64,000 nt of DNA from a virus. The DNA lies in the UHGV virus genome UHGV-0277504, one strand, 5' to 3'. The notes beneath the pieces were generated by a model. The model did no database searches. It saw nothing but the letters and a program-made list of their open reading frames with translations, and was not told the DNA's origin. How positions within the stretch are numbered: position 1 is the stretch's first letter; the number at the start of each line of letters is the position of its first letter. Shown here piece by piece: positions 11,077 through 55,437 of this stretch. Both the position numbers and the translations under genes were made by a program.

Positions 11077-12027
11077 TTATTTGTTTTTAAACTTTCTTTT
11101 TAAATTTTTACCTATAGAACTTACTAAATTCTTAACATCATTTAAAGTTATATTAAAATAATTGCTAATTTCATATTTATCCATATATTGATATTTTTCA
11201 ATAAAATCATCAATATCTATCTCTAGTCCATTATAAAATGTAAACACACTAGGTCTTTTTGAAACTATCCCTAATCTATTTAATTTATTAAAAATCTCTA
11301 GTACAGTATCTTTATACGTAAATATAATAAGTTGTATACCATTTTCTTTACAGTAATCTTCTTTTTTAGTATCCCATTCCTTTTGTTTTTCTTTTGTAGT
11401 GTTTCTATAGTCTCTATAATGTTGCTGTCCGTTATATTCTATACAATACTCCATTCCTTTATGTTTAATATAAAAATCCATTCTCTGATTTGAATTTTTT
11501 AAGAGGTACTCTCTTTCATATACTGTACCATTGTAATCTAGTATATCTTTAATTATCTTCTCTCCTATAGATAATTTATATCCATTATTCTTTTTATTTC
11601 TAATAGTCTTTATATAGTCTATATAGCTAATAGCGTTTAATACAGTTAATTTCTCTTCTTCTGTAGCTTCTCTAACAGTATATCCTTTTGCAGTAGTTCT
11701 TGGAAACCCATCCCTATGCCCTCTTGACACGTTTATCAATTCTGACTTACTGATACCATATAAATTTTGTATCATTTCCATAGGTAACTTTATAACTTCA
11801 TTACCTTTAGTTAATACATATACCTTTATGCGTTTATCAGTAATTGTTTTTGCTTTTTCACTAAAATCAGAATCTTCGTACCTAAACAACCATCCTTTAG
11901 TAGATTTTATTTTACCTTCTAAACACCTATTAACCGTACCCGTATTACCTACTAAATTTTGTGCTTCTTTTACACTAATGAATTCTTTACTTTCTCCTGT
12001 TTTAGTGTTTAAACCTATAATTTTCAT
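11077..12027 (-). CDS. free-standing homing-endonuclease-like protein (N-terminal DNA-binding modules + C-terminal DUF559/Vsr-like nuclease motif)
   Basis: C-terminus has the DFY..IEYNGQQH motif shared with the three other paralogs in the window. Real start is probably MKIIGLN (12027), preceded by AAAGGAGG. Sits next to intron-containing tail tube region. Confidence 0.6.
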   Translation of the reverse strand: MKIIGLNTKTGESKEFISVKEAQNLVGNTGTVNRCLEGKIKSTKGWLFRYEDSDFSEKAKTITDKRIKVYVLTKGNEVIKLPMEMIQNLYGISKSELINVSRGHRDGFPRTTAKGYTVREATEEEKLTVLNAISYIDYIKTIRNKKNNGYKLSIGEKIIKDILDYNGTVYEREYLLKNSNQRMDFYIKHKGMEYCIEYNGQQHYRDYRNTTKEKQKEWDTKKEDYCKENGIQLIIFTYKDTVLEIFNKLNRLGIVSKRPSVFTFYNGLEIDIDDFIEKYQYMDKYEISNYFNITLNDVKNLVSSIGKNLKRKFKNK

Positions 12028-12097
12028 TATATATCCTCCTTTATTTTTATCTTTAAATAAATTATACCATGTCATTAGTGTTTTGTCAAATTAAAAA

Positions 12098-12125
12098 AGA
12101 CCTGAGATAACTCAGGTCTTATAAT
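12098..12125 (-). terminator. rho-independent terminator after tail tube/intron region
   Basis: Minus strand AAGACCUGAG-UUAUC-UCAGGUCUUUUUU. Confidence 0.6.
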
Positions 12126-12127
12126 CG

Positions 12128-12833
12128 AATTAAGCTTTGTCACTTGCTGTCCTTTGTACCCTATCTCTCGATATATTTTAAAGGGAGTAGACTATACCAT
12201 AATCTTTAATGTAATTTAAAGACTCACCTATTATAGTCGTTGAAGCTTCCCACTTTGTAGGCTTGCCTGCGTATCATCTATTGCTTTAAGTACTTAGGAT
12301 TTAACCTTATACCATACTAGATATTTTTTCTGATTTCTCAACCTTCAAGCTTATCTTTTAGGATTACTTTGTAGTTATCTAGTCTTTAAGACTTTCACGC
12401 AATTTAAGGTGTTTTCTATGCTTGTCACCAAACATAGCCTCTATAAATTAAAGGTAGCTAAATTCAATTTCTTCTGTTACGATTTCGTTTGTACGCCCTT
12501 TTATACCGTTGGTTTCCCAATACTTTAACACTTTTTTATTAGTCGGAATAGACTATACCATAATCTTTAATGTAATTTAAAGACTCACCTATTATAGTCG
12601 TTGAACCTTCTTCTTATCTTTAGACTTAGAAGCTTGGATGCTGATTACCTATTACTTAGTCACTTAGTACCTTCTGTTTAAGGCTTTTATCTCAACATAT
12701 GACATCTAATCAATTTTTTCTACTTTCGTAACCTTCACATTTACCTTTTCAAGTTTTGTTGTGGTTTGATTAGCTTTAAGGTTTTCCAGCAATTTAAGGT
12801 GTTATTCGATTATCTATTACTAGATAAAAGGAG
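12128..12833 (-). ncRNA. two tandem group I intron-like elements (plus candidate micro-exon) downstream of tail tube exon 1
   Basis: Two copies (approx 12815-12490 and 12425-12130) share UUCAACGACUAUAAUAGGUGAGUCUUUAAAUUACAUUAAAGAUUAUGGUAUAGUCUA (P7-P8-P7'). Both open with an ACACCUUAAAUUGC box. Copy A has P2-like UUAUCUAGUAAUAGAUAAUCGAAUAAC and a GUUACGAAAGUAGAAAAAAUUGAUUAGAUGU core. Confidence 0.6.
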
Positions 12834-13202
12834 CTATATTTTTTCTAACTCTTCATTGTAGTTATTAGCACTACAGCCATGGTAACTGATAATCACTTGT
12901 TTAGTTAAATTATCAATAACAAGAATGTCGATAATATCTTTCTTAAGAATTTCTTCACCTAGTGAAGCATATCCTAATTTTGCAAAGTTTTCTTTTTTCA
13001 TACGTAAACGTTCTACTGTTAACGTACCTTCATATTTTAAGTAAACGTGTTCTTGTGGCATGATTGAACCAATTTCATACACACCAGTAGTTCCGTATTC
13101 ACGTCTACCACTTGCTGATTGTGCTCTTCCTACTGGTTTACCTTTAATATACAACAATACGGTATTACCAGTATGGACTGTTTGTTTAGCTTGTGATGCC
13201 AT
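12834..13202 (-). CDS. tail tube protein (probably exon 1 of an intron-interrupted gene)
   Basis: 122 aa directly after the sheath gene; ORF stop lies at the beginning of the intron-like sequence. Confidence 0.7.
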   Translation of the reverse strand: MASQAKQTVHTGNTVLLYIKGKPVGRAQSASGRREYGTTGVYEIGSIMPQEHVYLKYEGTLTVERLRMKKENFAKLGYASLGEEILKKDIIDILVIDNLTKQVIISYHGCSANNYNEELEKI

Positions 13203-13261
13203 TTAATTCACTCTCCTATATTTTATATAGAGGAGCCATTAGGCTCCTCAATAGAGCCTAA

Positions 13262-26375: not shown

Positions 26376-27146
26376 CTAATCTATATAATAGTTTGTATTA
26401 CTATTTCCTGAATTATAATTAGTAGTAACAAAAGTAGAATTAAACGCTGTACCATTTCCTTGTTGTATTAACTGTTGTATTCGTGTTAATCCGATATTTG
26501 CATATACACTTGCCTGTGCCCAGTGGTCGTCACCTTTACGTTTAATTACTTGATACATTTCTTCTTTTTTCTCGTCTTCCTCATCCATAATTAAAACATT
26601 TTGCCAATGTTTTAAATATGTTCTAAGGTCATCATCTACTTCTTGATACATACGTATATTTTTTGTTTTTAGTCCTTGGATATAAATCTTATTTTGCATA
26701 AGCTTATCAACAGTTACCGTATTATCTTTTTCATTAAATTTAGGTCGTAACTGTCCTGTAGAACGTGGACTGGAATTGTAAGTACATCCAAAAACTTTAT
26801 CTTCTCCAAAATGGTTTATAAGTTTTAGGACATTATTACCACTATCCCCATTATCTGCTATGATAATGTCTGGTTCATATTTAGAAATTTCCCATATAAT
26901 TGTTTCTAAATCAGCTTCAACCATATTAGGTCTTGTATTTTTCTTAACAGAAAATAATCTTATTAAGTCTTTTTTACCATCAGGCAATACACCATGGACT
27001 GTAACCCAGTGGTGATTTCCCCAATCAATTCCTACAGAAATATAAGAATAATTACCTCTGTTAAACATTTGTTTTTTAGCAACAGGTGATTTATTTTCAA
27101 ATACATCTTCTTCAAGAACACGCATTTTAACATCTTCATATGGCAT
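26376..27146 (-). CDS. terL: terminase large subunit, exon 4 (C-terminal nuclease domain)
   Basis: …ISVGIDWGNHHW…IIADNGDSGNN… RNase-H-like terminase nuclease motifs. Begins at ATG 27146 directly after omega-G 27147 of the upstream intron, in frame with exon 3. Confidence 0.8.
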   Translation of the reverse strand: MPYEDVKMRVLEEDVFENKSPVAKKQMFNRGNYSYISVGIDWGNHHWVTVHGVLPDGKKDLIRLFSVKKNTRPNMVEADLETIIWEISKYEPDIIIADNGDSGNNVLKLINHFGEDKVFGCTYNSSPRSTGQLRPKFNEKDNTVTVDKLMQNKIYIQGLKTKNIRMYQEVDDDLRTYLKHWQNVLIMDEEDEKKEEMYQVIKRKGDDHWAQASVYANIGLTRIQQLIQQGNGTAFNSTFVTTNYNSGNSNTNYYID

Positions 27147-28444
27147 CAATTACTACCGTTACTTTCGTAATACTTTAACATTCATTTAAGAATCGGTTTA
27201 GACTATATCATAACCCTTATTTTTGGTTAAGGGTTCCTTGCTTTACACTAATAACTTTTCATTTAAATAATCTTCAATATCTTTATATTTTCTTTTACTA
27301 TAATCTACTTCAAGAAGTAAGTAACCGTTATATTCTGCATAACTTTTCTTTAGCTCATCTCTTAATTTTTGGTTTTTAAATGCCTTCTCTCCACCAAAAG
27401 ATTTTACTGGTTGATAATGTTGTATTCCTTGATACTCTATTAATATATCATACTCAGGTAAATAAAAGTCATAAGATAGTGGCTTATTGTAGATTAAATC
27501 ATCAAACTTTTTCTGTGTTTCATATTTAATATTATTATTAATTAAATATTCTTCTACAAACTTTTCTCCAATAGGCATTTTACATTTAGGACACATATCT
27601 CTCTCCATAAGATGAGAAGCTCTTATTTCCCATGTTAAACCACATTTATGTCTAACTAAAACTTTAGATTTAGAATTAGTATACTCTGATAACACTTCAT
27701 AATCATTACCGTATTTTTTCTTAACTTCATCTAAAAACTGTTGATGAGTTCTTCTTTGTTTTAAGTTATGGTTTTTTATTCTACAATGAAAACATCTACT
27801 GTTCTTTGATAGAAACTCATTAGGTTTAACTTCCCATTCTTTTCCACATACATTATGAATTAATTTTACTTTATTAGTGGCTCCTGTATAATCACCAATT
27901 AAAGTATATTCATCACCTACTAAATCATGGAGTTCTTTTTTAAATTGTTTTGTAGTTTTAGATTTCCTACCTTTTCTTTTATCATTACAAGCAGGACATC
28001 TGTTACCATCTAAAAAAGATTTAGGCTTTATTAAGTATTCATGATTTCCACAAGTCTCAGAATTATGTCTCATAAGTATTTTTGTTTTATTATTTACATA
28101 TTCTCCTAAAACTTCATATTCATTTGATACCTTATCATATACTCTTTTCTTAAATTCTTCTGTAGTTATCTTCCTTGTCATTTTTAACCCCCCTTCTTTA
28201 TACATTTTTTTATTAAAAGTTATTAGTTTTTATCTAGTTCTCACTATATCCATTTATATAGTTACCTAGAAATTTAGTCGTTCGGCATTTACTATAATCT
28301 AATTATACCATACATTGTTATTCTGTCAATAATTAAATTATAGATTTAGCACAGGATTGCTTTATGCTTTTTCTAGCACTTAAGGTTTCCCTGTTTAACA
28401 AGGTTATTCGATATATATTACTATATAAAGGGGCTATGCCATTA
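27147..28444 (-). ncRNA. group I intron 3 in terL (contains endonuclease ORF)
   Basis: P1 GGGU|UAAUGGCAUAGCCC (U.G at splice site; exon ends …YSLG, stop UAA is the first 3 nt of the intron). P2-like UUAUAUAGUAAUAUAUAUCGAAUAAC. P7 5' AACGACUAAA before the ORF. S-element AUGAUAUAGUCUAAACC plus 3' module after the ORF. Confidence 0.75.
27243..28181 (-). CDS. intron-encoded homing endonuclease-like protein (Cys4 zinc-ribbon repeats + DUF559/Vsr-like nuclease motif)
   Basis: Start MTRKITTEEF after AAGGGGGG SD; three CxxC…CxxC ribbons; C-terminal YDFYLPEYDILIEYQGIQH; paralog of 29214..30155. Confidence 0.7.
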   Translation of the reverse strand: MTRKITTEEFKKRVYDKVSNEYEVLGEYVNNKTKILMRHNSETCGNHEYLIKPKSFLDGNRCPACNDKRKGRKSKTTKQFKKELHDLVGDEYTLIGDYTGATNKVKLIHNVCGKEWEVKPNEFLSKNSRCFHCRIKNHNLKQRRTHQQFLDEVKKKYGNDYEVLSEYTNSKSKVLVRHKCGLTWEIRASHLMERDMCPKCKMPIGEKFVEEYLINNNIKYETQKKFDDLIYNKPLSYDFYLPEYDILIEYQGIQHYQPVKSFGGEKAFKNQKLRDELKKSYAEYNGYLLLEVDYSKRKYKDIEDYLNEKLLV

Positions 28445-29170
28445 ACCCAACGAATAGTTATAAAATGCTTGCTTAGAATCTGTGTTCATTTCTTTTTCTA
28501 CTAATTGGTCTGCTGAAATCCATACAGCGTTCATTTGAGATATATAATATCCTCTAATACCTGAATTATTTTTTGTTCGTTCAGGATAACGACATTCCCA
28601 CACACCATTATACCATCTATCTAAAGGTTTACCACATTTTTGACATACATATTGGTATGTTCCATCTTGTACCGTTTTTGCTTGTTCATCAATACCTTCA
28701 GGATTAACCAATAATAAATTACCGCTTTGTTCTAAATTATTCTCATCATAGGGAGCATATTTCATCTCGTTATGGTAATCACAATGTTGGCAAACATGTG
28801 CATAGTACCATTGGTCTGATTGTTGATATAATTTATGAATACCTACACCTGGAGCTGAAGGTGTTGAGAATCTTCTAACAATGTGTAATGGTGAACTTGA
28901 CATAGATTCAAGTGCTGATGATTCAGCAAGTGAGTTAACACGTTCATATTCATCCATAGCTAAAAAGTCAATATCCACACCCTCAACTGAACCTGGTTTA
29001 CTACTCGTTCTAAAGAATAGACTAGAGTTTCTTATTTGTTTATACCCTAAAGAATCTTTATCCCAATTTACTATATCTTTAAAATATGATTTTTCTAAAA
29101 CAGGATTAAGCCTTGACTGAACAAATTTCTTAAGTTGCTCTTGTGTCGATTCTACCGCTATTTTCATAGT
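28445..29170 (-). CDS. terL: terminase large subunit, exon 3 (ATPase Walker B/motif III region)
   Basis: VDIDFLAMDEYE (Walker B-like), RRFSTPS; 5' end lies 0-15 nt upstream of ATG 29167 (in-frame stop 6 codons upstream sits inside the intron S-element/P9). Confidence 0.7.
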
Positions 29171-30428
29171 ATTTAAAACGGACTAGACTATATCTTAACT
29201 CAACATTTAGGTGTTAAGTTCTCTGCTTTACTTCTAAAACTAACTTTAATATATCTTTCTCTATACTCATTTCATTTTGTGTATAAGGTATTCTAATAAG
29301 TCTGATATTGTTATCTTGTGCATACTTATTTTTTATGCCATCCCTTATTTGTATTTCTCTTAGATAATCTTCTCCTCCAAAAAAATCCACTACTTTAGTA
29401 TGTTGTAATCCATCAAATTCAATAAGAGTATTTATAGAAGGAATATAAAAATCAAAAGGTAATTCTCTTTTATATCTACATTCTTTAAATCTTTTTTCTC
29501 TTTCAAATTCTACATTGTGTTTATTAAGTAAATCTTGTATTAACAACTCTCCTTTTGATGATTTACAATAAGGACACCCTGATAAGCGTATCACTTGATT
29601 AGGTTCAGATTTAAACGTATTTGAACATTCTGTACATCTAAAAGTAGTTTTTGTATGTGTATTTACATACTCTCCTTCTAATAAGATACGAGTTCCATGC
29701 TTATCTTTTAAATCTTTAAGTAACTTATTAATATCTTTTTTCTGTTTATCATGATTATACTCATTTACACATTTAGGACATAAAAACTTTTTATGTTGTC
29801 TTAATGCATTTGTAGGACTTACTAAAAAAGTATGGTTATGTTTTAAACATCTATGTTTAATTTTTACATCATGGGTTTTATAAATACCTTCTATTACTAT
29901 ATTTCCTTTATATTTGTTTTCTAATTCTTTACTATATTTTTCATAACTCTTAACCCTTTTTAGTTCTCTACAATGTTTACATCTGTTACCGTTCATAAAA
30001 TTGTTTGCTTTTACTTCCCATTCTTTACCACACTTATTATGTCTAAGTAAAACTTTATTTTTACTTAAAGTATACGTACCTATGACAGTATACTCATCTC
30101 CTACTAAATTATAAACATCTTTAACAAATTCTTCATGCGTTTTTTTCTTAGTCATTATATACTACCCTCCTTATACCTTATAATTTAATCTAGTTTTATT
30201 AAAGTTAGTTAGTTTTCTTATCTAGTTCTCACCTACACCTTTTTGTAAGTTACCTAGAAATTTAGTCGTTAGGCATTTACCTTAATTTAATTATATCATA
30301 CATTATTATTTTGTCAATAATTAAATTAAAGATTTAGCACGGTATCGGCTCTATCCGTTAGGACTTAGCTTCTCTTACCAGGTTATTCATTATTCCCCTG
30401 TGACCGTTTAACAGAGTTTTAATTCCCC
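29171..30428 (-). ncRNA. group I intron 2 in terL (contains endonuclease ORF)
   Basis: 5' core 30420-30180 homologous to introns 1 and 3 (CUCUGUUAAACGG…GUGCUAAAUCU…AACGACUAAAUUUC). S-element AAGAUAUAGUCUAG at ~29190 overlaps the ORF 3' end. Upstream exon ends U|UAA. Confidence 0.65.
29214..30155 (-). CDS. intron-encoded homing endonuclease-like protein (Cys4 zinc-ribbon repeats + DUF559/Vsr-like nuclease motif)
   Basis: 313 aa; MTKKKTHEEFVKDVYNLVGDEY parallels 27243 paralog; C-terminal FDFYIPSINTLIEFDGLQH; AAGGAGGG SD. Confidence 0.7.
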   Translation of the reverse strand: MTKKKTHEEFVKDVYNLVGDEYTVIGTYTLSKNKVLLRHNKCGKEWEVKANNFMNGNRCKHCRELKRVKSYEKYSKELENKYKGNIVIEGIYKTHDVKIKHRCLKHNHTFLVSPTNALRQHKKFLCPKCVNEYNHDKQKKDINKLLKDLKDKHGTRILLEGEYVNTHTKTTFRCTECSNTFKSEPNQVIRLSGCPYCKSSKGELLIQDLLNKHNVEFEREKRFKECRYKRELPFDFYIPSINTLIEFDGLQHTKVVDFFGGEDYLREIQIRDGIKNKYAQDNNIRLIRIPYTQNEMSIEKDILKLVLEVKQRT

Positions 30429-30569
30429 AAAGATTTAGGGAATGTGTAAAGACATTTTACATTTTTAAAACTATACATATCTGCAAAATGTACCATTTCC
30501 ATTACAGACATTTCACTTAATCCTAGCTGACGTGACTTAATTACTGCTTTATTAGGATGAGTATCATTT
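30429..30569 (-). CDS. terL: terminase large subunit, exon 2 (mini-exon with deviant Walker A KSRQLGLS)
   Basis: ~47 codons NDTHPNKAVIKSRQLGLSEMSVMEMVHFADMY… with stops flanking. Joins exon 1 (ending …AAA AUC GU) in frame via the first A after omega-G 30570. KSRQxGxS matches the deviant terminase Walker A of the lambda gpA KSARVGYS type. 3' boundary is ±10 nt. Confidence 0.6.
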
Positions 30570-30917
30570 CAATTACTACCGTTACTTTCGTAATACTTTA
30601 ACATTCATTTAAGAATCGGTTTAGACTATATCACAACCCTTATTTTTGGTTAAGGGTTCTCTGCTTTACGGAATATTATTCCTCTTATCTATTAAAATAG
30701 AAATTTAGTCGTTAGGCTTTTACTATAATCAAATTATATCATATATTATTATTTTGTCAATAATTAAATTATAGATTTAGCACGGTTGGTTCCCACTGTC
30801 TGTGTATAGTCAGATTTAGGGTTTCTTACCAGTATATTGGTTTTCTATACATTATTTTACTATGCCCGTTTAACAGAGTTATTCAATACATATTACTACA
30901 TAAGGTCGCAAATAATT
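30570..30917 (-). ncRNA. group I intron 1 in terL (no ORF)
   Basis: ~345 nt; P1 UCGU/GCGA with U.G; P2-like UUAUGUAGUAAUAUGUAUUGAAUAAC; core and 100-nt 3' module near-identical to intron 3. Confidence 0.7.
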
Positions 30918-31131
30918 ATACGATTTTAACTTGCCAAGGTCTATGTGCTTGTGCTTTACTTCTATCTCTATTAGGTATACTGAATGTAATAGGATGTCCT
31001 CTTAGTGTATGATACTTTAACATATACGTACTCGGATTAAGCATATTCAATATATGGTCTAACTGTTCTCTAGTAACATTTTTTGTTTTAAAAGTTTCCT
31101 GTGTCATTTTTATTAATTCTTTACCATCCAT
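30916..31131 (-). CDS. terL: terminase large subunit, exon 1 (N-terminus)
   Basis: AGGAGG SD + ATG 31131; ORF stops 2 codons into intron 1. Confidence 0.6.
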   Translation of the reverse strand: MDGKELIKMTQETFKTKNVTREQLDHILNMLNPSTYMLKYHTLRGHPITFSIPNRDRSKAQAHRPWQVKIV

Positions 31132-37326: not shown

Positions 37327-38058
37327 ATGAAAACTAAAAAACAAGCTTTAAAATGGATTTTAAATACTATAGGTCAAGGTATAGATTGGGATAAAATGTA
37401 TGGGTTTCAATGTATGGATTTAGTTGTTGCTTATTTATATTACGTTACTGATGGGAAAATAGCAATGTGGGGAAATGCTATTGATGCTCCTAAAAATAAT
37501 TTTAAAGGTACTGCTAAAGTAATTAAAAATTACCCTGCTTTTAGACCTGAAGCAGGAGATATAGTAGTTTGGTCTTATGGTAATTTTAGTACTTACGGAC
37601 ATATTGCTGTAGTTATAGATGGAGACCCTTACGGTGACTTGCAGTATATCACAGTAGCTGAGCAAAATTGGAATGGTTTAGGACTATACAAACAAGAAGT
37701 TACTACAAAACGTATTCATAATTACGATGGTGTATCTCATTTCATAAGACCTAAGTTCAAAAAAACAGTTAAAAAAGAAGATAACACTCTTACAAAAGAA
37801 AAAAACAACAAAAAAACAAAAGGAAAAAAATTAAAAGTATCAACACAAAGAATAAACTACACTATGGATAAAAGAGGTTATAAACCTAAATTTGTTGTAA
37901 TACACAATGATGCTGGTAGTTCTTCTGCACAACAGTATGAACAAGGATTAAAAAATGCAGGATACAGTAGATATGCTCAAGGAGTAGCACATGCATACGC
38001 TTCTGATGGTTATGTGTGGGAAGCAATATCAGAAGATAGAATAGCTTGGCATACGGGT
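37327..38058 (+). CDS. endolysin exon 1 (CHAP domain + start of amidase_2 domain)
   Basis: CHAP motifs (FQCMDLV…GHIAVV); amidase start VVIHNDAG…AWHTG; exon ends at GGGU of P1. Confidence 0.8.
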
Positions 38059-38410
38059 AAATAGTTGCCCTGTTATATAGTAATGTATAATTAAAATTCT
38101 TTTAATTGACTGGGAGGCTAAGGCTATCAAGCTATGCTAATCAGCATCCAAGAATATTGTTTAAAAAAACTACTTGACAACATAATAACTTTTGGAAACA
38201 ATATTAAGGTTCAACGACTATCCTTATAGACGAGTGCCAATAAAAAATAAATCGTCAACAGGAGTAGGGCTCAAGTTAATGGAGTAGGTGAGAATCCTTT
38301 AAATCGAAATGGAGAACCCCTAAAATAATTAGGGTGAAGATATAGTCTAGACTTATAGGAAACTATGAGAAGTTCATAAGAGAACTGGTAGAGTGTTACG
38401 AACTCTATTG
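38059..38410 (+). ncRNA. group I intron in endolysin gene (352 nt, no ORF)
   Basis: P1 GGGU|AAAUAGUUGCCC; P2-like GUUAUAUAGUAAUGUAUAAUUAAAA; P7 GGUUCAACGACUAUCC; S-element GAAGAUAUAGUCUAGAC; P9 AGAGUGUUACGAACUCU; omega-G 38410. Confidence 0.8.
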
Positions 38411-39142
38411 AATATATCGGATGGAACAAATCCAGGAACAGGTAACTTTGAAGGATATGGAATTGAAGTTTGTCAATCTTTAGGAGATAGAAATACTTTC
38501 TTAAAAAATGAGCAAACTGTATTCCAATTTATTGCAGAAAAATTGCAAAAATGGAACTTACCTGCAAATAGAAATACCATCAGACTTCATAATGAATTTA
38601 TACAAACAGAATGTCCCCATGCTTCAGCATATTATCATGCAGGTATGAATACTAAAGTAGATGCTTATACAAAAGAAAGACAATTAAAAATAAAAGATTA
38701 TTTCATAAAACAAATTAGAGCATACATGAAAGGAAGTACACCTAAATCTACAGTAGTAAAATCTAGTAAAAGTAGTGGTTCTTTACCTAAGAAACAAGGT
38801 AAAAAACAAAAATTTAAATCAAATATTGGTAAAACATTCGACTTTAATGGATTAAATACCAATACTTGGGGTACTAAATGGTATTATGAAAATAATACAT
38901 TTACATGTAATGCTCGACAAGGTATCATAACAAGAGTAGGTAGTCCGTTTACAAACGCACCTCAAGCAGGTGTTTTATTCTACGGACAAACTGTAACATA
39001 TAATCAAGTAGCTGTTAATCCAAAAGAGCCATTTGTATGGATTTCATGGATTACAAATAATGGTACTGAAGTATGGATGCCTATTGAAGTCTTAGACAGT
39101 AATAATAAAATTATTGAGCAGTGGGGTACTTTTGGTTGGTAA
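38411..39142 (+). CDS. endolysin exon 2 (rest of amidase_2 + SH3b cell-wall binding domain)
   Basis: Spliced junction …AWHTG|NISDGTNPGTGNFEGYGIEVCQS restores a contiguous N-acetylmuramoyl-L-alanine amidase domain; C-terminal SH3b-like WYYENNTFTC…. Confidence 0.8.
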   Translation, partial: NISDGTNPGTGNFEGYGIEVCQSLGDRNTFLKNEQTVFQFIAEKLQKWNLPANRNTIRLHNEFIQTECPHASAYYHAGMNTKVDAYTKERQLKIKDYFIKQIRAYMKGSTPKSTVVKSSKSSGSLPKKQGKKQKFKSNIGKTFDFNGLNTNTWGTKWYYENNTFTCNARQGIITRVGSPFTNAPQAGVLFYGQTVTYNQVAVNPKEPFVWISWITNNGTEVWMPIEVLDSNNKIIEQWGTFGW

Positions 39143-42447: not shown

Positions 42448-43029
42448 ATGAGTGAAAAATATTTAACAGGAACATCTTTATCAGGAACATCAACTACAAG
42501 AGATAGGGTAGAGAATGATTATTATGCTACTCCACCAGAGAGCACTTTAAAATTATTAGAAGTAGAGGAATTTAAGGGGAATGTATTAGAACCCTGTTGT
42601 GGAGAAGGACATATATCAGAAGTATTAAAGAAAAAAGGGTTTGAAGTACACTCCAATGATTTAATAAACAGAGGTTATGGGGAAGATAACAAAGACTTTT
42701 TAAAAGAAGGTTTTAGAACTTATGACAATATTATTACAAATCCACCTTATAAGTATGCTAAGGAATTTATTGAAAAGGCATTAAAAATAACAACAGGAAA
42801 AGTAGCTATGTTTTGTAAGATTCAATTATTAGAAGGTGTATCTAGATATGATATGTTTCAAAATTCTCCTTTAAAAACAGTCTATGTATTTACTAAAAGA
42901 CAGAACCCTTGGCGTAATGGTAGTCCAGTAGATGAGAATGGTAAAAAATGGGCTAGTACAATGTGCTTTGCATGGTTTGTTTTTGAACATGGTTATGATG
43001 GAAAACCAACGATAGAATGGTTATTATAA
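42448..43029 (+). CDS. DNA N6-adenine methyltransferase (NPPY motif)
   Basis: TNPPYKY catalytic motif, EPCCGEGH AdoMet-binding-like motif. Confidence 0.65.
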   Translation: MSEKYLTGTSLSGTSTTRDRVENDYYATPPESTLKLLEVEEFKGNVLEPCCGEGHISEVLKKKGFEVHSNDLINRGYGEDNKDFLKEGFRTYDNIITNPPYKYAKEFIEKALKITTGKVAMFCKIQLLEGVSRYDMFQNSPLKTVYVFTKRQNPWRNGSPVDENGKKWASTMCFAWFVFEHGYDGKPTIEWLL

Positions 43030-43037
43030 AAAAAGTA

Positions 43038-43066
43038 TTGACATTGATATAAAAATGATGTAAAAT
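43038..43066 (+). promoter_or_regulatory. sigma-70-type promoter (AAAAAGTATTGACA-17-TAAAAT)
   Basis: hexamers and spacing. Confidence 0.5.
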
Positions 43067-43099
43067 AAAGATATAATAAAAATAAAGGAGATTTAAACT

Positions 43100-43789
43100 A
43101 TGATTAATTTATTACAAGGAGATTGTATAAAACTTATTGAAAAATTAGAGGACAACAGTGTTAATGCTATTATTACAGACCCACCGTATAACATTGCAAA
43201 AAAGAATAATTTTACTACTATGGGTAGAGCAGGTATTGATTTTGGAGATTGGGATAAAGAATTTGATGAAATTGCATGGATTGAAAAAGCAATTCCTAAA
43301 ATAAAAAAAGGTGGTAATATTGTAGTATTCTGTGATATGAGACAATTTACACCTATTATAGAAAAAATGGAAAGTTTAGGTTGTGAATTTAAAGATGTTA
43401 TCCGTATGGTTAAGTCAAATCCTATGCCTAGAAATAGGGATAGACGTTTTATTTTTGATACAGAATTTGCATTATATTTTATTAAAAAAGGCGCTAAATG
43501 GACTTTTAATAGATTAGATGAGAAATATGAAAGACCTTTAATTGAGACAACTGTTACACCTAAATCGCAAAAGGTCGATAAAGGACACCCAACACAGAAA
43601 CCTCTATATGCTATGGAATGGTTATTAGAGAGACTTACAAATGAAGGCGATACTATTCTTGACCCGTTTATGGGTAGTGGTACTACTGGAGTAGCTTGCC
43701 AAAAATTAAATCGTGATTTTATTGGTTGTGAATTATCCGATGAATATTTTAAAATGGCACAAAAGAGATTACAATATGGACTTAAATAG
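43100..43789 (+). CDS. DNA methyltransferase, beta-class (DPPY…SGTT)
   Basis: ITDPPYN motif IV followed by C-terminal FMGSGTTGVAC motif I (circularly permuted N6A/N4C class). Confidence 0.7.
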   Translation: MINLLQGDCIKLIEKLEDNSVNAIITDPPYNIAKKNNFTTMGRAGIDFGDWDKEFDEIAWIEKAIPKIKKGGNIVVFCDMRQFTPIIEKMESLGCEFKDVIRMVKSNPMPRNRDRRFIFDTEFALYFIKKGAKWTFNRLDEKYERPLIETTVTPKSQKVDKGHPTQKPLYAMEWLLERLTNEGDTILDPFMGSGTTGVACQKLNRDFIGCELSDEYFKMAQKRLQYGLK

Positions 43790-43802
43790 GAGGATAATTT
43801 AA

Positions 43803-44618
43803 ATGGAATTAAATAAAATTTATAATGAAGATTGTTTAGAGGGTATGAATAAAATACCTGATAAATCAGTAGATATGATACTTTGTGATTTACCCTATGA
43901 AGTTACTGCTTTAAAATGGGATAAGATTATACCTTTAGATAAATTATGGGAACAATATGAAAGAATTATTAAAGATAATGGTGCTATTGTTTTAACAGCT
44001 ACTCAACCCTTTACAAGTAAACTTGTAATGAGTAATTCTAAATTATTTAAACATGAATGGATTTGGGAAAAACAAAAAGCAAACAACTTCATGGGTGCTA
44101 AGTATCAACCATTAAAATATCATGAGAATATATTGGTTTTTGGTAAGGGTAAAGTAAATTATTATCCTCAGAAATATAAAGTGTTAGAAGTAGAAGAAAT
44201 AATTGAAATGAATAAAAAAGAATTAACAAACTTAATGAAAACTAGAGATTATGATAGATTTGGAAAAGTAGACAGACGTAAGACAATTAATAACTCTAAA
44301 AGTAATAAAGATTATTTAGGAACAAAAGTAACTAGAAATAGAACAAAAGATACAGGTTATAGAAATCCTAAAAGTGTTTTGAAAATTAATAAAGAGATTA
44401 ATGGTTTATTACACCCTACACAAAAACCAGTAGCTTTATTTGAATACTTAATTAAAACATACTCTAACGAGGGAGATACTGTTTTAGATAACTGTATGGG
44501 AAGTGGTACTACTGCTATTGCTTGTTTAAATACTAATAGAAATTATATAGGATTTGAATTAGATGAAGAATATTATAATAAATCTTTAGATAGAATAGAA
44601 GAACACAAAGGAGAATAA
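43803..44618 (+). CDS. DNA methyltransferase, beta-class (DLPY…SGTT), paralog of 43100
   Basis: CDLPYE motif IV, CMGSGTTAIAC motif I. Confidence 0.65.
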   Translation: MELNKIYNEDCLEGMNKIPDKSVDMILCDLPYEVTALKWDKIIPLDKLWEQYERIIKDNGAIVLTATQPFTSKLVMSNSKLFKHEWIWEKQKANNFMGAKYQPLKYHENILVFGKGKVNYYPQKYKVLEVEEIIEMNKKELTNLMKTRDYDRFGKVDRRKTINNSKSNKDYLGTKVTRNRTKDTGYRNPKSVLKINKEINGLLHPTQKPVALFEYLIKTYSNEGDTVLDNCMGSGTTAIACLNTNRNYIGFELDEEYYNKSLDRIEEHKGE

Positions 44619-44895: not shown

Positions 44896-45951
44896 ATGGA
44901 ATTACAAGAAGTAACTTTATTAACTCCTTTAGATAATTTTGTAGTGTATAAAAACGGAAGAAGGAGAGTTTATGTAAATTGTTTATGTATATGTGGTAAT
45001 AAAATATGTGTCAGAGAAGATTCTTTTAAAACAAAAACAATAAAGTCTTGTGGTTGCTATAAAAAATATATTTATAATAAAGTGAAAAACCAACCTTTTC
45101 CTATAAATATAAAACGTATAAAAAATAATATTTACTATCCTATATATGGTTTTATAGGTTATTATATATCTATGAATGGTAAAATATATAGTGAATTTAC
45201 AGACAGATTTATAAAAAGAAGAAAAAACAAGAAAAATTATGTTATAGTTTCTATAATGGAAAGTGATAAAACAAAGTCTGAGCCTGTATTGTTGCATAGG
45301 TTATTAGCAAAGACGTTTATACTTAATAAAGATAATAAAGAAACAGTAAATCATAAAGATTTTAACACGTTAAACTACTCTCTATCTAACTTAGAGTGGG
45401 CAACACAACAGGAAAATAACAGTCATAGGAATAACGCAAATTATAGTGGAGAAAGAAATAATAAATCCTTTAAATTAAAACCAGAAGATGTTAAAGAAAT
45501 TTACGAATCCACCCTACCATATGAGGAGTTAGAATCATATTACGGTGTTAAAAAACAAATGTTATACAAAATAAAAAATGGCAAGTGTTGGTATGAAGTA
45601 ACAAAAGATTTAAAAAAAGGAAATTCAGATAAAAACTACTTAGACAATGAAACAATTAAAAGAATTTATAAAGAAGAAGGAAAAATAAAAGATATTGCTA
45701 AAAAATACAACGTATCAAGAGAAACTGTATCAAAAATTAAGCAACGTAAAATACATTCCAATGTTACAAAAGACTTAGTAAAAGGAGAATCTACTCACAA
45801 TCATTTCACTAAAGAATTAGTTAAGAGTATATATCTGTGTGAAGGAACGCAAAAGTATATTGCAAATAAATTTAATATCAGTCAGTCAGCTGTATCAAAT
45901 ATAAAAAGTGGAAAAACATATAGTAATATTACAAAATATATTAAGAAATGA
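44896..45951 (+). CDS. free-standing HNH homing endonuclease with C-terminal NUMOD-like HTH repeats
   Basis: HNH_3-type motif VNHKDFNTLNYSLSNLEWATQQEN; three repeated ~35-aa modules ending …KIKxGKxxxNVTK. Confidence 0.65.
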   Translation: MELQEVTLLTPLDNFVVYKNGRRRVYVNCLCICGNKICVREDSFKTKTIKSCGCYKKYIYNKVKNQPFPINIKRIKNNIYYPIYGFIGYYISMNGKIYSEFTDRFIKRRKNKKNYVIVSIMESDKTKSEPVLLHRLLAKTFILNKDNKETVNHKDFNTLNYSLSNLEWATQQENNSHRNNANYSGERNNKSFKLKPEDVKEIYESTLPYEELESYYGVKKQMLYKIKNGKCWYEVTKDLKKGNSDKNYLDNETIKRIYKEEGKIKDIAKKYNVSRETVSKIKQRKIHSNVTKDLVKGESTHNHFTKELVKSIYLCEGTQKYIANKFNISQSAVSNIKSGKTYSNITKYIKK

Positions 45952-52173: not shown

Positions 52174-52204
52174 CTATTTAGTAACTAATAAGAGAGGTGT
52201 AGTA

Positions 52205-52513: not shown

Positions 52514-52552
52514 CTTTAAATTAGTAAAAAATAATAGAAAGTAGGTATAGTA

Positions 52553-53137: not shown

Positions 53138-53139
53138 TT

Positions 53140-53394: not shown

Positions 53395-53452
53395 CATAAA
53401 GATATTTTTTATAGTATAATAAAGGAAAAGATACTAGAAGGAGAGAATTATA

Positions 53453-53926
53453 ATGAGTAAATATGAAAAAGAAATAGAACAATTTTTAGAATCAGAAAGT
53501 GTAAAAATAGATTATGGTACTTTTGAATTAGAATTTGAAAAAGGTAAATCTCCATTTATTCATTTACTATATAAAGGATTACCAATTGATACACTAGAAA
53601 ATTATCTTATTATTACAGAAGAGTATTTACAACAACTATTTGAAAAATATGAATATTATCCTAAGGAATACTTTGAAGATAAGTTAACTAAAACAGATAA
53701 AAGAATTAAAAAAAGAAAAATAGGAAATGAAATACTAAATAAAACTAAAGACCTACATGAATTATCTTCAGAAATAGAAAAAATTATTAAGCTTTATGAA
53801 GAAGCATTTAATACAAAAGAAGAATATTTATTTAAAGAATATGAAATAGGTTTATATATTACACACTTAGATGAAGTTATCCAAAAGTTAAATAAGTATA
53901 CAGAATATAATAATAATGACTTTTAA
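53453..53926 (+). CDS. hypothetical protein
   Basis: 157 aa. Confidence 0.5.
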   Translation: MSKYEKEIEQFLESESVKIDYGTFELEFEKGKSPFIHLLYKGLPIDTLENYLIITEEYLQQLFEKYEYYPKEYFEDKLTKTDKRIKKRKIGNEILNKTKDLHELSSEIEKIIKLYEEAFNTKEEYLFKEYEIGLYITHLDEVIQKLNKYTEYNNNDF

Positions 53927-53947
53927 TACTTATATTTTATAAATAAA

Positions 53948-53976
53948 AGCAAGAGTTTTTATCTCTTGCTTTTTAA
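53948..53976. terminator. bidirectional terminator between convergent genes
   Basis: AAAAGCAAGAG-TTTTTATC-TCTTGCTTTTT. Confidence 0.6.
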
Positions 53977-55437
53977 ATTATCTATTTTATTTTTCAATAT
54001 ATCTATTTCTTTTTGATAATCTCTTATTTCAAATTCATAAGCTTCATATTCTATCTGATTTAATTTTTTTAATTTATTTACATATTCTCTTACAATTTTT
54101 TTATTTAATTTAGATTCTATAGATATTTCTTTTAAAGTTAAATTTTTTTCATATAATTTTTTAACTAATAAAATATTATCTATATCATAAAAAGAATTTT
54201 TAAAAACGTTAAACCAATTAACATTAGGATTATATAAAGAGGAATTCTTAATACTAGTTTTAATGTATTCAAAGTCAGAAAGCTCAGCATTTATTTCTAT
54301 ATAGTTAATACCATTATTAATAACCGCTTCTTTTTTCTCTTTATCTACTCTTTGTTGTTCTTCTAAAGTTAGTTTAAATCTAGCACCTTCTCTTAACTCT
54401 TTATAATGTTGAGCACCATGAACTTCTATCACACAATTTAAATTTGGTAAATAGAAATCATACCTTCTTCTTTTTAAGAAATCAAAAGTTTTTTCTTGTA
54501 TATAAAAAATACCTAATTCATCTAAGTAAGCTTTAACGACTTTTTCTGGATAACTTCTTTTTATATTAAATTTACTTTTGTTTTCTTTATTTTTACTTTT
54601 TAATTCCGCACAATAACCACAATTTTTTTGTACTCCATTTAAAAAATGGTCTACTCTAACCTTCTTAACTGTACCGCAAGTTAAACACTTAACTTTAAAC
54701 ATATTTCTTGTATTTATAGTACCATCCTTATTTATAAACTCTTCATTAAAATAATCAACTATCTCATAGTTATTATTTACTTCACCTATTAAATTTTTAT
54801 TAGCATCAGAATCTTTATTAGCTAAATAAGATATATTACAAGTAAAGAAATTATACTCATTATATAATCTATTTTTATTATCATGTTCTAATCTTATATA
54901 ACCAATTTCTTTACCTTTATTATTGTACTTAGTAAAATAGTCTAAGATAGTGACGTAACCCTTATAGTTATTAAATTCAAAGTAAACATCACAACCAATA
55001 CTATTTTTTAAATCTACTTTACCATTATTTTTTAGCGGTAAACTTTCATAATACATCTTTCTTTTAGTTGATTCTTTACTGTGTTTTAATTTATCACCTA
55101 CTATACTTTTAAGTGATACATTTAAAAAACTTTCTTTATTTATAACATAATAGTTATTATCATACTTTAATTTTAAACGAGCTTTTTTATTATCTTTAGT
55201 ACTAGGTAAATATTCTTCTATTACTATATAACCTTTAACACTTATATACTCAAAAGGAACTTCTGTATTATTACATTTTTTAAAATCATATACTTCTTTT
55301 CCTGATGGCTGTGTTTTAGTAGGTACATTAGTTAAGTCTATGTAACAAGGTTTATTATTTTTATATACTTTAATTATTTTATCCATTAAATATTTCTCCT
55401 TACTATTTTTTATCCTAGGTACACTATAATATAACAA
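53959..55437 (-). CDS. free-standing homing-endonuclease-like protein (zinc ribbons + DUF559/Vsr-like nuclease motif), largest paralog
   Basis: 492 aa; C-terminal RYDFYLPNLNCVIEVHGAQHY…; CLTCG…CGYC zinc ribbon. Confidence 0.6.
   Translation of the reverse strand: MLYYSVPRIKNSKEKYLMDKIIKVYKNNKPCYIDLTNVPTKTQPSGKEVYDFKKCNNTEVPFEYISVKGYIVIEEYLPSTKDNKKARLKLKYDNNYYVINKESFLNVSLKSIVGDKLKHSKESTKRKMYYESLPLKNNGKVDLKNSIGCDVYFEFNNYKGYVTILDYFTKYNNKGKEIGYIRLEHDNKNRLYNEYNFFTCNISYLANKDSDANKNLIGEVNNNYEIVDYFNEEFINKDGTINTRNMFKVKCLTCGTVKKVRVDHFLNGVQKNCGYCAELKSKNKENKSKFNIKRSYPEKVVKAYLDELGIFYIQEKTFDFLKRRRYDFYLPNLNCVIEVHGAQHYKELREGARFKLTLEEQQRVDKEKKEAVINNGINYIEINAELSDFEYIKTSIKNSSLYNPNVNWFNVFKNSFYDIDNILLVKKLYEKNLTLKEISIESKLNKKIVREYVNKLKKLNQIEYEAYEFEIRDYQKEIDILKNKIDNLKSKR

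What the first reader, a model, noticed from the sequence alone, without database searches (positions are those of the whole stretch)
11077..55437. Four-member family of zinc-ribbon + DUF559/Vsr-like endonuclease genes, two intronic and two free-standing
ORFs 27243..28181 and 29214..30155 (both 313 aa, inside terL introns), 11077..12027 (next to the tail tube introns) and 53959..55437 (492 aa, free-standing) share a C-terminal DFY(L/I)P…(I/V)E(Y/F/V)(D/N/Q/H)G.QH motif. This is characteristic of DUF559/very-short-patch-repair-like PD-(D/E)xK nucleases rather than the usual HNH/GIY-YIG/LAGLIDADG homing enzymes. Three members also have repeated CxxC…CxxC ribbons. This is a plausible novel homing-endonuclease family that has moved between intronic and intergenic locations within one genome. 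A classical HNH/NUMOD enzyme (44896..45951) is also present.
Basis: partly seen in the sequence, partly recalled or inferred. Interest (0 to 1): 0.6.

Follow-up and report, generated by a model that had tools for sequence, protein, structure and literature searches.

The report
Vsr-like (EDxHD) homing endonuclease genes

Summary
The window is a Sepunavirus (Herelleviridae) genome segment, 98-99% identical to phages 80A, Quidividi and Terranova. All four ORFs exist at the stated coordinates. They share a ~105-aa module with invariant E…DFY…IE-x-G-x-QH…D-x-x-K. Leave-one-out profiles recover each member at E 2e-12 to 9e-23, and no fifth ORF matches.

Pfam DUF559 and Vsr models do not match. A four-sequence profile hits only PDB 3R3P, the I-Bth0305I catalytic domain. 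AlphaFold models of P2 and P4 match I-Bth0305I and/or E. coli Vsr best.

The fold call is therefore right, but the novelty claim is not. EDxHD has been a recognised family since 2009-2011. The zinc-finger-repeat plus EDxHD architecture was described in 2025. GenBank already labels the P2 ortholog "VSR homing endonuclease".

The four are not recent intragenomic copies: they are 25-35% identical, have different DNA-binding modules, and P1-P3 have closer relatives in other phages and metagenomes.

Modest new points:
- P4 is an unannotated member with a rare architecture.
- P3 is a new allele replacing an HNH gene in the same intron.
- P1's alleles at its locus have permuted domain order.

No cleavage activity was tested.

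The parts
11077..12027 (-). P1: free-standing EDxHD homing-endonuclease gene (316 aa). N-terminal I-HmuI NUMOD-like region, nuclease domain aa 152-255 (nt 11263..11574), C-terminal HTH-like tail. Catalytic positions E156, D184, E197, x=N199, H203, D219, K222.
   Evidence: PF22083, 27.9 bits; phrog_7140, E 9e-115. It lies after the tail-tube stop and a terminator hairpin.
27243..28181 (-). P2: EDxHD homing-endonuclease gene inside terL intron A (312 aa). Three H/C…CxxC zinc modules, then nuclease domain aa 202-312 (nt 27246..27578). E206, D238, E249, x=Q251, H255, D275, K278.
   Evidence: (AlphaFold pLDDT 92.5; Foldseek top hits 3r3p_B and 1vsr). The ortholog is annotated 'VSR homing endonuclease'.
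29214..30155 (-). P3: EDxHD homing-endonuclease gene inside terL intron B (313 aa). Three zinc modules, then nuclease domain aa 199-313 (nt 29217..29561). E203, D235, E246, x=D248, H252, D272, K275.
   Evidence: (DUF4379 49.4 bits, CapR 29.1 bits). No deposited phage relative above 47% identity. The exact protein is listed in 66 blocks of public assemblies, most of them metagenomes or sequencing runs.
53959..55386 (-). P4: free-standing EDxHD gene (475 aa from the ATG at 55386; the ORF extends to a TTG at 55437). Beta-rich N-terminal repeats, one CxxC…CxxC ribbon (C234/C237/C256/C259), nuclease domain aa 277-387 (nt 54226..54558), helical HTH-like C-terminus. E281, D310, E321, x=H323, H327, D348, K351.
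   Evidence: phrog_4538, function unknown; AlphaFold pLDDT 84.7; Foldseek top hits Vsr 1cw0_A and 1vsr. Replaced by another gene in Terranova.
27147..28444 (-). terL intron A (1298 nt), carrying P2. The core is about 97% and 88% identical to the ORF-less intron C; the P2 cassette (27247..28253) replaces 15 nt of C.
   Evidence: Precisely absent from phiIPLA-C1C. The 5' exon ends in U, with P1 pairing GGGU/GCCC; the intron ends in G. Core S-element string GATATAGTC at 27201..27209. Paralogy.
29147..30436 (-). terL intron B (1290 nt; boundary ambiguous by 1 nt), carrying P3. In phage 80A the same intron at the same site carries an HNH gene instead.
   Evidence: Absent from Quidividi and C1C. The ends 29147..29231 and 30339..30437 are shared with 80A while the middle differs. 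The 80A ORF is HNH_3, E 1.5e-9. UCCCU/GGGGA P1 pairing and terminal G. GATATAGTC at 29186..29194.
30570..30919 (-). terL intron C (350 nt), ORF-less paralog of introns A and B.
   Evidence: Absent from Terranova. Required for a continuous TerL. GATATAGTC at 30624..30632.
26376..31131 (-). terL gene. Exons 30920..31131, 30437..30569, 28445..29146 and 26376..27146 splice to a 605-aa large terminase.
   Evidence: GpA_ATPase Pfam hit on the homologous exons.
12130..13202 (-). Tail-tube gene with two ORF-less introns. Exon 1 is 12848..13202. Intron is about 12498..12847. Exon 2 is about 12451..12497. Intron is about 12151..12450. Exon 3 is 12130..12150. The spliced product is 140 aa.
   Evidence: tblastn with the intronless phiSA12 tail tube. 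Splice reconstruction gives …NYNEEWRTNEIVTEEIEFSYLTASDKA*.
11072..12858 (-). Cassette exchanged as one block between Sepunaviruses: the 3' end of the tail-tube gene with both introns, the terminator, and P1.
   Evidence: Phages 110 and C1C are 97-99.8% identical outside 11072..12858 and essentially unrelated inside, apart from a few short 72-85% patches. Inside they carry different introns and a different EDxHD gene.
44896..45951 (+). Free-standing HNH endonuclease with repeated HTH modules. It is not part of the EDxHD family.
   Evidence: phrog_59, E 2e-43.

Best explanation
The four ORFs are homing endonuclease genes of the EDxHD (Vsr-like) family, in a Sepunavirus genome. Each joins the same ~105-aa catalytic module to a different DNA-binding module:
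- P2 and P3: three CapR/DUF723/DUF4379-type zinc fingers.
- P1: a NUMOD-like N-terminal region plus a C-terminal HTH-like tail.
- P4: beta-rich repeats, one zinc ribbon and an HTH-like tail.

Inferred mechanism, by analogy with I-Bth0305I and Vsr. In a mixed infection the DNA-binding module recognises the allele that lacks the element, at or near the insertion site. The catalytic residues (D of DFY, E of IE, H of QH, D of DxxK, and the upstream E) coordinate Mg2+ and cut the DNA. Repair from the element-bearing genome then copies in the gene, together with its intron or neighbouring cassette.

P2 and P3 sit in peripheral insertions of small group I introns in terL, so splicing keeps the terminase intact. 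P1 and P4 are free-standing.

Shown here: homology of the four, the predicted fold, conservation of the catalytic residues, exact intron boundaries, and presence/absence and replacement polymorphism.

Inferred only: nuclease activity, target sites and self-splicing.
For: Family:
- Invariant E/DFY/IE/G/QH/D/K in the four proteins.
- D, E, G, H, D and K are invariant in all 270 top domains, and the upstream E in 266 of them. The x position is D 119, Q 118, N 26, H 7.
- Leave-one-out E values of 2e-12 to 9e-23.

Link to EDxHD:
- The only PDB sequence hit of the four-sequence profile is 3r3p, I-Bth0305I (E 0.031).
- hhalign against wild-type I-Bth0305I gives E 2.5e-4 and puts the family's E, DFY, IE-x-G and D-x-x-K in register with I-Bth0305I E170, D196, E206/N208 and D222. 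H213 falls within one residue of the family His; the 270-domain HMM alignment pairs the two. Residue numbers are from PMC3239194.
- Foldseek on the P2 model: 3r3p_B first (probability 1.00, TM 0.67), 1vsr second, then other Vsr-like folds such as AbaSI, PvuRts1I and mitoribosomal proteins.
- Foldseek on the P4 model: Vsr 1cw0_A and 1vsr first.

Mobility signature:
- Intron A is absent from C1C. Intron B is absent from Quidividi and C1C. Intron C is absent from Terranova.
- Exact P3 occurs in metagenomic terL genes with four different intron combinations.
- P4 is replaced by another gene in Terranova.
- The P1 cassette is exchanged as a block.

Prior art: the same architecture is described as an EDxHD/Vsr outgroup in PMC12350094, and the P2 ortholog is annotated 'VSR homing endonuclease'.
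Against: - No enzymatic data exist for any member of this zinc-finger plus EDxHD subgroup, as far as the papers read here show.
- Sequence similarity to I-Bth0305I is weak: hhalign probability 43%, and 11.3 bits with the 270-domain profile.
- Pfam has no model that catches the nuclease domain.
- Rfam RF00028 does not recognise introns A to C. The best match is 11.4 bits at E 2.1. Group I status therefore rests on splice-site hallmarks, a conserved core string, and the annotation of relatives.
- Every Sepunavirus examined, and Kayvirus phiSA12, has some EDxHD gene at the P1 locus. No empty site was seen there, which is less typical of a purely sporadic selfish element.
Confidence: 0.85

Rival explanations
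1. They are Vsr/DUF559-type nucleases used by the phage for another purpose, such as host DNA degradation, exclusion of competing phages, repair or anti-defence. Their intron or island location would then be incidental.
For: Some EDxHD gene occupies the P1 locus in every Sepunavirus examined and in Kayvirus phiSA12. No empty site was seen there, which could mean it is retained for a function. P4 lies in a variable region that contains small genes annotated as phage K BofL and TreN homologues, and no target gene is evident. Domesticated homing-endonuclease domains are documented in phages (PMC10055350).
Against: P2 and P3 are embedded in introns whose presence varies independently among 97-99% identical genomes. 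The alleles at the P1 locus are replaced as cassettes rather than conserved. There is no match to Pfam DUF559 or Vsr.
Confidence: 0.08
2. They are decaying or inactive homing-endonuclease remnants, or proteins retained as splicing helpers (maturases) rather than as active nucleases.
For: Homing endonuclease genes commonly degenerate after fixation. Intron C and the tail-tube, endolysin and tape-measure-region introns of the same family are ORF-less.
Against: All four ORFs are full length with every catalytic position intact. P2 and P3 are found 100% identical on independent metagenomic contigs. The models are high-confidence, compact domains.
Confidence: 0.05
3. One reading: a novel homing-endonuclease family whose members spread between intronic and intergenic sites within this one genome.
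For: All four share one nuclease module within one genome. P2 and P3 share about 80% nucleotide identity over their leader and first codons (28152..28352 against 30126..30340).
Against: The family is known (PMC3239194, PMC12350094) and very large. Pairwise identity is 25-35%, with different DNA-binding architectures. P1, P2 and P3 each have closer homologs in other phages or metagenomes than in this genome.
Confidence: 0.02

Closest known systems
I-Bth0305I, prototype of the EDxHD (Vsr-like) homing endonuclease family (Bacillus phage 0305phi8-36 recA group I intron; PDB 3R3P; PMC3239194)
   Same: Predicted catalytic fold (top Foldseek hit for P2). The composite E…D…x…H…D motif aligns in register. 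Encoded in a phage group I intron. Modular design with a separate DNA-binding region. P1 also has a NUMOD-like DNA-binding region.
   Different: Sequence similarity is marginal (E 0.031 against the whole PDB). P2 and P3 use zinc-finger repeats rather than NUMOD2/HTH. The window family additionally has invariant Q-H and D-x-x-K, and a longer H-to-D spacer. No biochemistry exists for the window proteins.
[quoted passage not shown]
   Same: P2 and P3 have exactly this architecture: three ~60-aa CapR/DUF4379/DUF723-like modules followed by a ~100-aa EDxHD-like domain. They sit in phage introns and have homologs elsewhere in the same genome.
   Different: In this window they sit in small group I introns of terL. 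P1 and P4 combine the same nuclease with other DNA-binding modules, and P1's allelic forms have the nuclease at the opposite end.
E. coli Vsr very-short-patch repair endonuclease (PDB 1VSR, 1CW0) and Pfam DUF559
   Same: Fold-level resemblance (probability 1.00 for P2 and P4). The overall pattern E…DF…E-x-(D/N/Q/H)-G…H…D resembles DUF559, from my own recollection of that family's motif.
   Different: No Pfam Vsr or DUF559 match at E<=1. No evidence for a mismatch-repair role. The context is mobile elements.
T5orf172 (GIY-YIG-type) phage homing endonuclease genes with CapR/DUF723/DUF4379 zinc-finger repeats (PMC10055350)
   Same: The same family of repeated zinc-finger DNA-binding modules. The same theme of domain shuffling, and location at boundaries of genetic exchange.
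   Different: The nuclease domain is unrelated (GIY-YIG-like versus Vsr-like).
Quidividi_076 and Terranova_079 'VSR homing endonuclease' (GenBank MH321490, MH542234)
   Same: Ortholog of P2, in the same terL intron within a region 99.4% (Quidividi) and 98.7% (Terranova) identical in DNA.
   Different: Those genomes lack intron B and P3.

Membership tests
EDxHD (I-Bth0305I-type, Vsr-like) homing endonucleases | Catalytic domain with the Vsr-like nuclease fold | tested here: met
   AlphaFold model of P2 (pLDDT 92.5): Foldseek top hits 3r3p_B and 1vsr, both probability 1.00. Model of P4 (pLDDT 84.7): 1cw0_A and 1vsr on top. These are predicted structures, not solved ones. P1 and P3 were not modelled; they are inferred by homology.
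EDxHD (I-Bth0305I-type, Vsr-like) homing endonucleases | Composite motif E…D…x…H…D, corresponding to I-Bth0305I E170, D196, N208, H213 and D222 | tested here: met
   All four keep E, D, H and D, with x = N, Q, D or H. The alignments place E, D, x and the last D in register with I-Bth0305I; the His is offset by one residue in one alignment and paired in another. Residue numbers are from PMC3239194.
EDxHD (I-Bth0305I-type, Vsr-like) homing endonucleases | Statistically significant sequence similarity to established members | tested here: inconclusive
   Four-sequence profile against PDB: only 3r3p, E 0.031. hhalign pairwise E 2.5e-4 but probability 43%. The 270-domain HMM gives 11.3 bits. The 38-sequence full-length profile gives no PDB nuclease hit. 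This fits a 'distant outgroup'.
EDxHD (I-Bth0305I-type, Vsr-like) homing endonucleases | Encoded in self-splicing introns or inteins, or free-standing, with sporadic distribution among close relatives | tested here: met
   Introns A and B are precisely absent from close relatives. Intron content is combinatorial in metagenomes. P4 is replaced in Terranova. The P1 cassette is exchanged.
EDxHD (I-Bth0305I-type, Vsr-like) homing endonucleases | Site-specific double-strand cleavage of the element-less allele next to the insertion site | not testable with these tools
   Requires protein expression and cleavage assays on the C1C and Quidividi terL junction sequences.
CapR-like repeat plus EDxHD/Vsr-like outgroup (PMC12350094) | Three to five ~60-aa modules related to Pfam CapR, DUF4379 or DUF723, N-terminal to the nuclease | tested here: met
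   Met for P2 and P3: CapR 32.5 and 29.1 bits, DUF4379 26 and 49.4 bits, all above their cut-offs, with three H/C…CxxC modules each. Not met for P1, which has no Cys ribbon. P4 has only one ribbon and no Pfam hit.
Pfam DUF559 (PF04480) and Vsr (PF03852) | Match to the family HMM at or above the gathering score | tested here: not met
   No DUF559 or Vsr hit at E<=1 for any of the four. There are only weak hits to other PD-(D/E)xK families: CoiA_nuc E 0.01 and TnsA-like E 0.34. NCBIfam has nothing relevant.
Group I introns (for the elements carrying P2 and P3) | Match to Rfam RF00028 | tested here: not met
   No hit at the gathering threshold or at E<=1. Intron C searched alone gives 11.4 bits, E 2.1. 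Positive control: the alternative tail-tube introns of phage 110 score 106 and 68.6 bits.
Group I introns (for the elements carrying P2 and P3) | 5' exon ending in U that forms a U·G pair in P1 with an internal guide; intron ending in G; conserved core elements | tested here: met
   From the junction sequences: GGGU/GCCC (A), UCCCU/GGGGA (B), UCGU/GCGA (C), and all three end in G. GATATAGTC occurs once in each of A, B and C, 39 to 54 nt from the 3' splice site. It occurs 4 times in the window against 0.79 expected. That this string is the core of the group I 'S' element is from my own knowledge. No group II hallmarks were seen.
Group I introns (for the elements carrying P2 and P3) | Self-splicing in vitro or in vivo | not testable with these tools
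   Indirect support only: excision restores a continuous 605-aa TerL. [quoted passage not shown]

The most novel reading that the evidence does not exclude
Sepunavirus terL and the tail-tube locus may form a natural exchange system, in which the EDxHD nuclease module, its DNA-binding modules and a family of near-identical small group I intron cores recombine freely.

Observed:
- One intron carries either an HNH or an EDxHD gene.
- Alleles at one locus have circularly permuted domain order.
- A free-standing EDxHD gene (P1) is inherited as one block with two ORF-less introns in the adjacent tail-tube gene.

The speculative extension is that P1 mobilises those ORF-less introns in trans. That would resemble 'collaborative homing', which I recall from my own knowledge for cyanophage psbA and T3-like phages.
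Probability: 0.2. Interest if true: 0.5.

Novelty: new member of a known kind. Interest (0 to 1): 0.3.

Why it matters
Mostly this is a matter of correct annotation. Automated pipelines label these proteins 'HNH endonuclease' (PHROG 559), 'intron encoded nuclease' or 'hypothetical protein'. They are in fact EDxHD/Vsr-like homing endonucleases.

The zinc-finger plus EDxHD subgroup is very large. The domain matches more than 40,000 representative clusters, yet no biochemical characterisation of it appears in the papers read here.

This phage group offers convenient natural substrates. Near-identical genomes with and without each intron define the presumptive target sites to the nucleotide. That would make a first cleavage and specificity study of the subgroup straightforward.

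The HNH/EDxHD swap in one intron and the permuted alleles are small but clear examples of how homing-endonuclease modules are reshuffled.

Tried and rejected
- Pfam and NCBIfam scans of the four proteins gave no DUF559, Vsr or other nuclease family match.
- Single-sequence phmmer of P2 against the PDB gave only chance hits.
- A 38-sequence full-length profile against the PDB gave no nuclease hit; only the more diverse four-domain profile reached 3r3p.
- Rfam found no intron family. This was tried at the gathering threshold on the whole window, at E<=1 on terL, at E<=5 on the tail-tube region, and on intron C alone.
- The minimum-free-energy fold of intron C was uninformative (z = -2.3).
- A fifth family member in the window: none found.
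- Group II intron identity: rejected. The non-ORF parts are only about 290-350 nt, there are no GUGYG or AY ends, and Rfam gives no hit.
- Recent intragenomic duplication: rejected on identity values.
- P1 as intron-encoded, as RefSeq names its orthologs: rejected. It starts about 100 nt after the tail-tube stop codon and beyond a terminator hairpin.
- Collaborative homing by P1: left open and considered unlikely, because Kayvirus phiSA12 has a P1 ortholog next to an intronless tail-tube gene.

Full report
**Identity of the window.** The region is from a Staphylococcus epidermidis myophage of the genus Sepunavirus (Herelleviridae, Twortvirinae). It is 98-99% identical in DNA to phages 80A, 80B, Quidividi, Terranova and phiIPLA-C1C, apart from insertions and replacements.

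**The observation.** All four ORFs exist on the minus strand.
- P1: 11077..12027, with an alternative ATG at 12075.
- P2: 27243..28181, or 28205.
- P3: 29214..30155.
- P4: 53959..55386. The ORF opens at a TTG at 55437. Twillingate annotates the ATG that gives 475 aa, with an RBS.

A four-way alignment shows one shared ~105-aa module with invariant E, DFY, IE, G, QH, D, K and N. Pairwise BLASTP E-values range from 2e-5 to 3e-49. Leave-one-out HMMs recover each omitted member at E 2e-12 to 9e-23 among 271 six-frame ORFs of the window, and no other ORF matches. The family relationship is therefore real, and the window holds exactly four members.

The zinc-ribbon remark needs a small correction. 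P2 and P3 each have three H/C-x(1-4)-C…CxxC modules, P4 has one CxxC…CxxC, and P1 has none.

**What the nuclease module is.** Pfam gives no DUF559 or Vsr match at E<=1. There are only faint hits to other PD-(D/E)xK families (CoiA_nuc, TnsA-like), and NCBIfam has nothing relevant.

PHROGs place the proteins in phrog_7140 ('intron encoded nuclease', P1), phrog_559 (P2 and P3, labelled 'HNH endonuclease') and phrog_4538 (P4, function unknown). All four cross-hit phrog_9084 'homing endonuclease'.

Evidence linking the module to I-Bth0305I and Vsr:
- A profile of the four domains hits a single PDB sequence, 3R3P, the catalytic domain of the homing endonuclease I-Bth0305I (E 0.031).
- I recovered wild-type I-Bth0305I from Bacillus phage 0305phi8-36. 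hhalign gives E 2.5e-4 (probability 43%). It puts GE(K) on E170, DFY on D196, IE-x-G on E206/N208 and D-x-x-K on D222.
- A 270-domain HMM gives the same register and also pairs the family His with H213.
- The AlphaFold2 model of P2 (mean pLDDT 92.5) has 3r3p_B as its best Foldseek match in the PDB (probability 1.00, TM 0.67 on the target). E. coli Vsr 1vsr comes second, followed by other Vsr-like folds: mitoribosomal proteins, AbaSI, PvuRts1I and 3hrl.
- The model of P4 (pLDDT 84.7) has Vsr 1cw0_A and 1vsr on top.

According to Taylor et al. 2011 (PMC3239194), the family is defined by the composite motif EDxHD: E170, D196, N208, H213 and D222 in I-Bth0305I, corresponding to D51, H64, H69 and D97 of Vsr. 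In the 270 best domains from a 1.8-billion-protein library, D, E, G, H, D and K are invariant, and x is D 119, Q 118, N 26 and H 7.

**DNA-binding modules.** The repeats of P2 and P3 match Pfam CapR and DUF4379 above their cut-offs. Their homologs also carry DUF723. Barth et al. (PMC10055350) describe these three zinc-finger profiles as the repeated DNA-binding domains of phage T5orf172 homing endonucleases.

P1 has an I-HmuI NUMOD-like N-terminal region (27.9 bits) and a C-terminal helical tail that resembles the tail of P4.

The N-terminal 230 residues of P4 are beta-rich repeats with no significant structural match. Full-length relatives of P4 number only about seven clusters, and where an organism is recorded it is a staphylococcus.

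**Introns.** Comparison with relatives gives nucleotide-level boundaries.
- 27147..28444 (intron A, carrying P2) is absent from phiIPLA-C1C.
- 29147..30436 (intron B, carrying P3) is absent from Quidividi and C1C.
- 30570..30919 (intron C, ORF-less) is absent from Terranova.

Removing all three gives an uninterrupted 605-aa TerL.

Each 5' exon ends in U. That U can form a U·G pair within a short P1 helix with a nearby internal guide (GGGU/GCCC, UCCCU/GGGGA, UCGU/GCGA). Each intron ends in G (sequences).

The string GATATAGTC occurs once in each of A, B and C, 39 to 54 nt from the 3' splice site. It occurs four times in the window against 0.79 expected. From my own knowledge, this string is the core of the group I 'S' element.

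Rfam's RF00028 nevertheless does not detect these introns, although it does detect the alternative tail-tube introns of phage 110. The announcement paper for Quidividi, Terranova and Twillingate reports group I introns in terL (PMC6597688).

Introns A, B and C are paralogs. The 3' 100 nt of A are 97% identical to C. The P2 cassette (27247..28253) replaces 15 nt of C.

**Free-standing members.** The tail-tube gene has two ORF-less introns. With the splice sites that obey the U/G rule, the spliced product is 140 aa and ends …NYNEEWRTNEIVTEEIEFSYLTASDKA. P1 starts about 100 nt after the tail-tube stop, beyond a terminator hairpin. RefSeq names its orthologs 'intron encoded nuclease'.

P4 lies between convergent gene blocks and, in the relatives' annotations, has its own RBS and terminator. 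It is replaced by an unrelated 142-aa gene on the other strand in Terranova.

**Evidence for mobility.**
- The exact P3 protein is listed in 66 blocks of public assemblies. Four terL contexts were read: the window arrangement with P2 100% identical; P3 without intron A; P3 with a different EDxHD ORF in an upstream intron; and P3 with yet another EDxHD ORF at another site.
- In phage 80A, intron B is present at the same site with the same ends (29147..29231 and 30339..30437). Its ORF is an HNH_3 endonuclease rather than P3.
- The block 11072..12858 (tail-tube introns, terminator and P1) is replaced as a unit in phages 110 and C1C by different introns and a different EDxHD gene.
- The C1C allele is a clean circular permutation of P1. 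Its residues 3-177 align with P1 149-311 (nuclease plus tail, 36% identity). Its residues 177-312 align with P1 2-143 (NUMOD-like part, 49% identity).
- The 110 and BE25 alleles also have the nuclease at the N-terminus.

**Comparison with what is known.** The Vsr-like EDxHD family is one of the recognised homing-endonuclease families (PMC3239194; listed as such in PMC6083498). [quoted passage not shown] It reports thousands of UniProt hits and calls it a large unrecognised outgroup. That is the architecture of P2 and P3. GenBank records for Quidividi and Terranova already call the P2 ortholog a (group I intron-associated) VSR homing endonuclease. The nuclease profile matches 41,779 representative clusters at E<=1e-3.

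**Verdict on the interpretation.** The fold and family-level guess, and the intronic versus free-standing layout, are correct. The novelty claim and the idea of recent movement within this genome are not.

The four proteins are 25-35% identical over their BLASTP matches and have different DNA-binding modules. P1, P2 and P3 each have closer relatives elsewhere: P1 58% to Kayvirus phiSA12, P2 about 61% to metagenomic proteins, P3 46-47% to Staphylococcus, Bacillus and Enterococcus phage proteins.

What is modestly new:
1. P4, 'hypothetical' in the annotated relatives examined, is an EDxHD member with a rare architecture.
2. P3 is an allele not present in 50,697 deposited phage records.
3. One intron carries either an HNH or an EDxHD gene.
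4. The alleles at the tail-tube locus have permuted domain order.

**Mechanism.** By analogy with I-Bth0305I and Vsr, the conserved acidic residues and the histidine would coordinate Mg2+ and activate water for strand cleavage. The appended DNA-binding modules would give long-site recognition near the insertion point of an element-less genome during co-infection. Recombinational repair would then copy in the gene with its intron or flanking cassette. The fold, motif and polymorphism are shown here. Cleavage, target sites and splicing are inferred.

Noticed in passing
window 29147..30436; L002 (phage 80A) 4648..5475: The same terL intron at the same site, with shared ends, carries the EDxHD gene P3 in the window but a 172-aa HNH_3 endonuclease in phage 80A. 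The homing-endonuclease gene has been swapped inside one intron.
   Followed up: partly
window 11077..12027 vs L008 1225..2163 (C1C gp020), L006 1361..2350 (110_00024), L017 1514..2374 (BE25_0100): Alleles at the locus downstream of the tail-tube gene are circular permutations of each other. P1 is ordered NUMOD-like, nuclease, tail. The C1C, 110 and BE25 proteins have the nuclease first and the NUMOD-like region last.
   Followed up: partly
window 11072..12858: The 3' part of the tail-tube gene (two introns, exons 2 and 3), the terminator and P1 are exchanged as one block between otherwise 97-99.8% identical Sepunaviruses. This may reflect a co-conversion tract or collaborative homing.
   Followed up: partly
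window 38065..38392 (+): The endolysin is split within its amidase domain: CHAP plus Amidase_2 in 37327..38064, SH3_5 in 38393..39142. The ~330-nt ORF-less gap carries GATATAGTC (38339..38347) and similarity to terL intron C, so it is probably another intron of the same family.
   Followed up: partly
window 4519..5261 (-): The gap between the 1105-aa ORF (5262..8579) and a glucosaminidase-domain ORF (3937..4518) contains a copy of the tail-tube intron family (5063..5244). This is likely the tape-measure-region intron whose boundaries the Quidividi paper could not define.
   Followed up: no
window 12151..12847, 27147..28444, 29147..30436, 30570..30919: Rfam RF00028 misses this whole intron family (best 11.4 bits). 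It scores the alternative tail-tube introns of phage 110 at 106 and 68.6 bits. Automated annotation will therefore miss these introns and split terL and the tail-tube gene into fragments, as in several GenBank records.
   Followed up: partly
window 27243..28181 and 29214..30155; PHROG 559: PHROG 559, which holds the zinc-finger plus EDxHD proteins, is labelled 'HNH endonuclease'. The label is propagated into records such as 80A_00004 and several RefSeq entries. No HNH motif or Pfam HNH hit is present in P2 or P3.
   Followed up: yes
L012 1533..2504; L015 4847..5809: Metagenomic Sepunavirus terL genes carry two further distinct zinc-finger plus EDxHD ORFs (32-38% identical to P2 and P3) in other intron positions. 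The terL pan-gene therefore hosts at least four EDxHD genes and one HNH gene.
   Followed up: partly
window 42448..44618 (+): Three consecutive ORFs carry (D/N)PPY-type motifs (TNPPYKY, TDPPYNI, CDLPYEV), which suggests DNA methyltransferases. They lie immediately upstream of the free-standing HNH gene.
   Followed up: no
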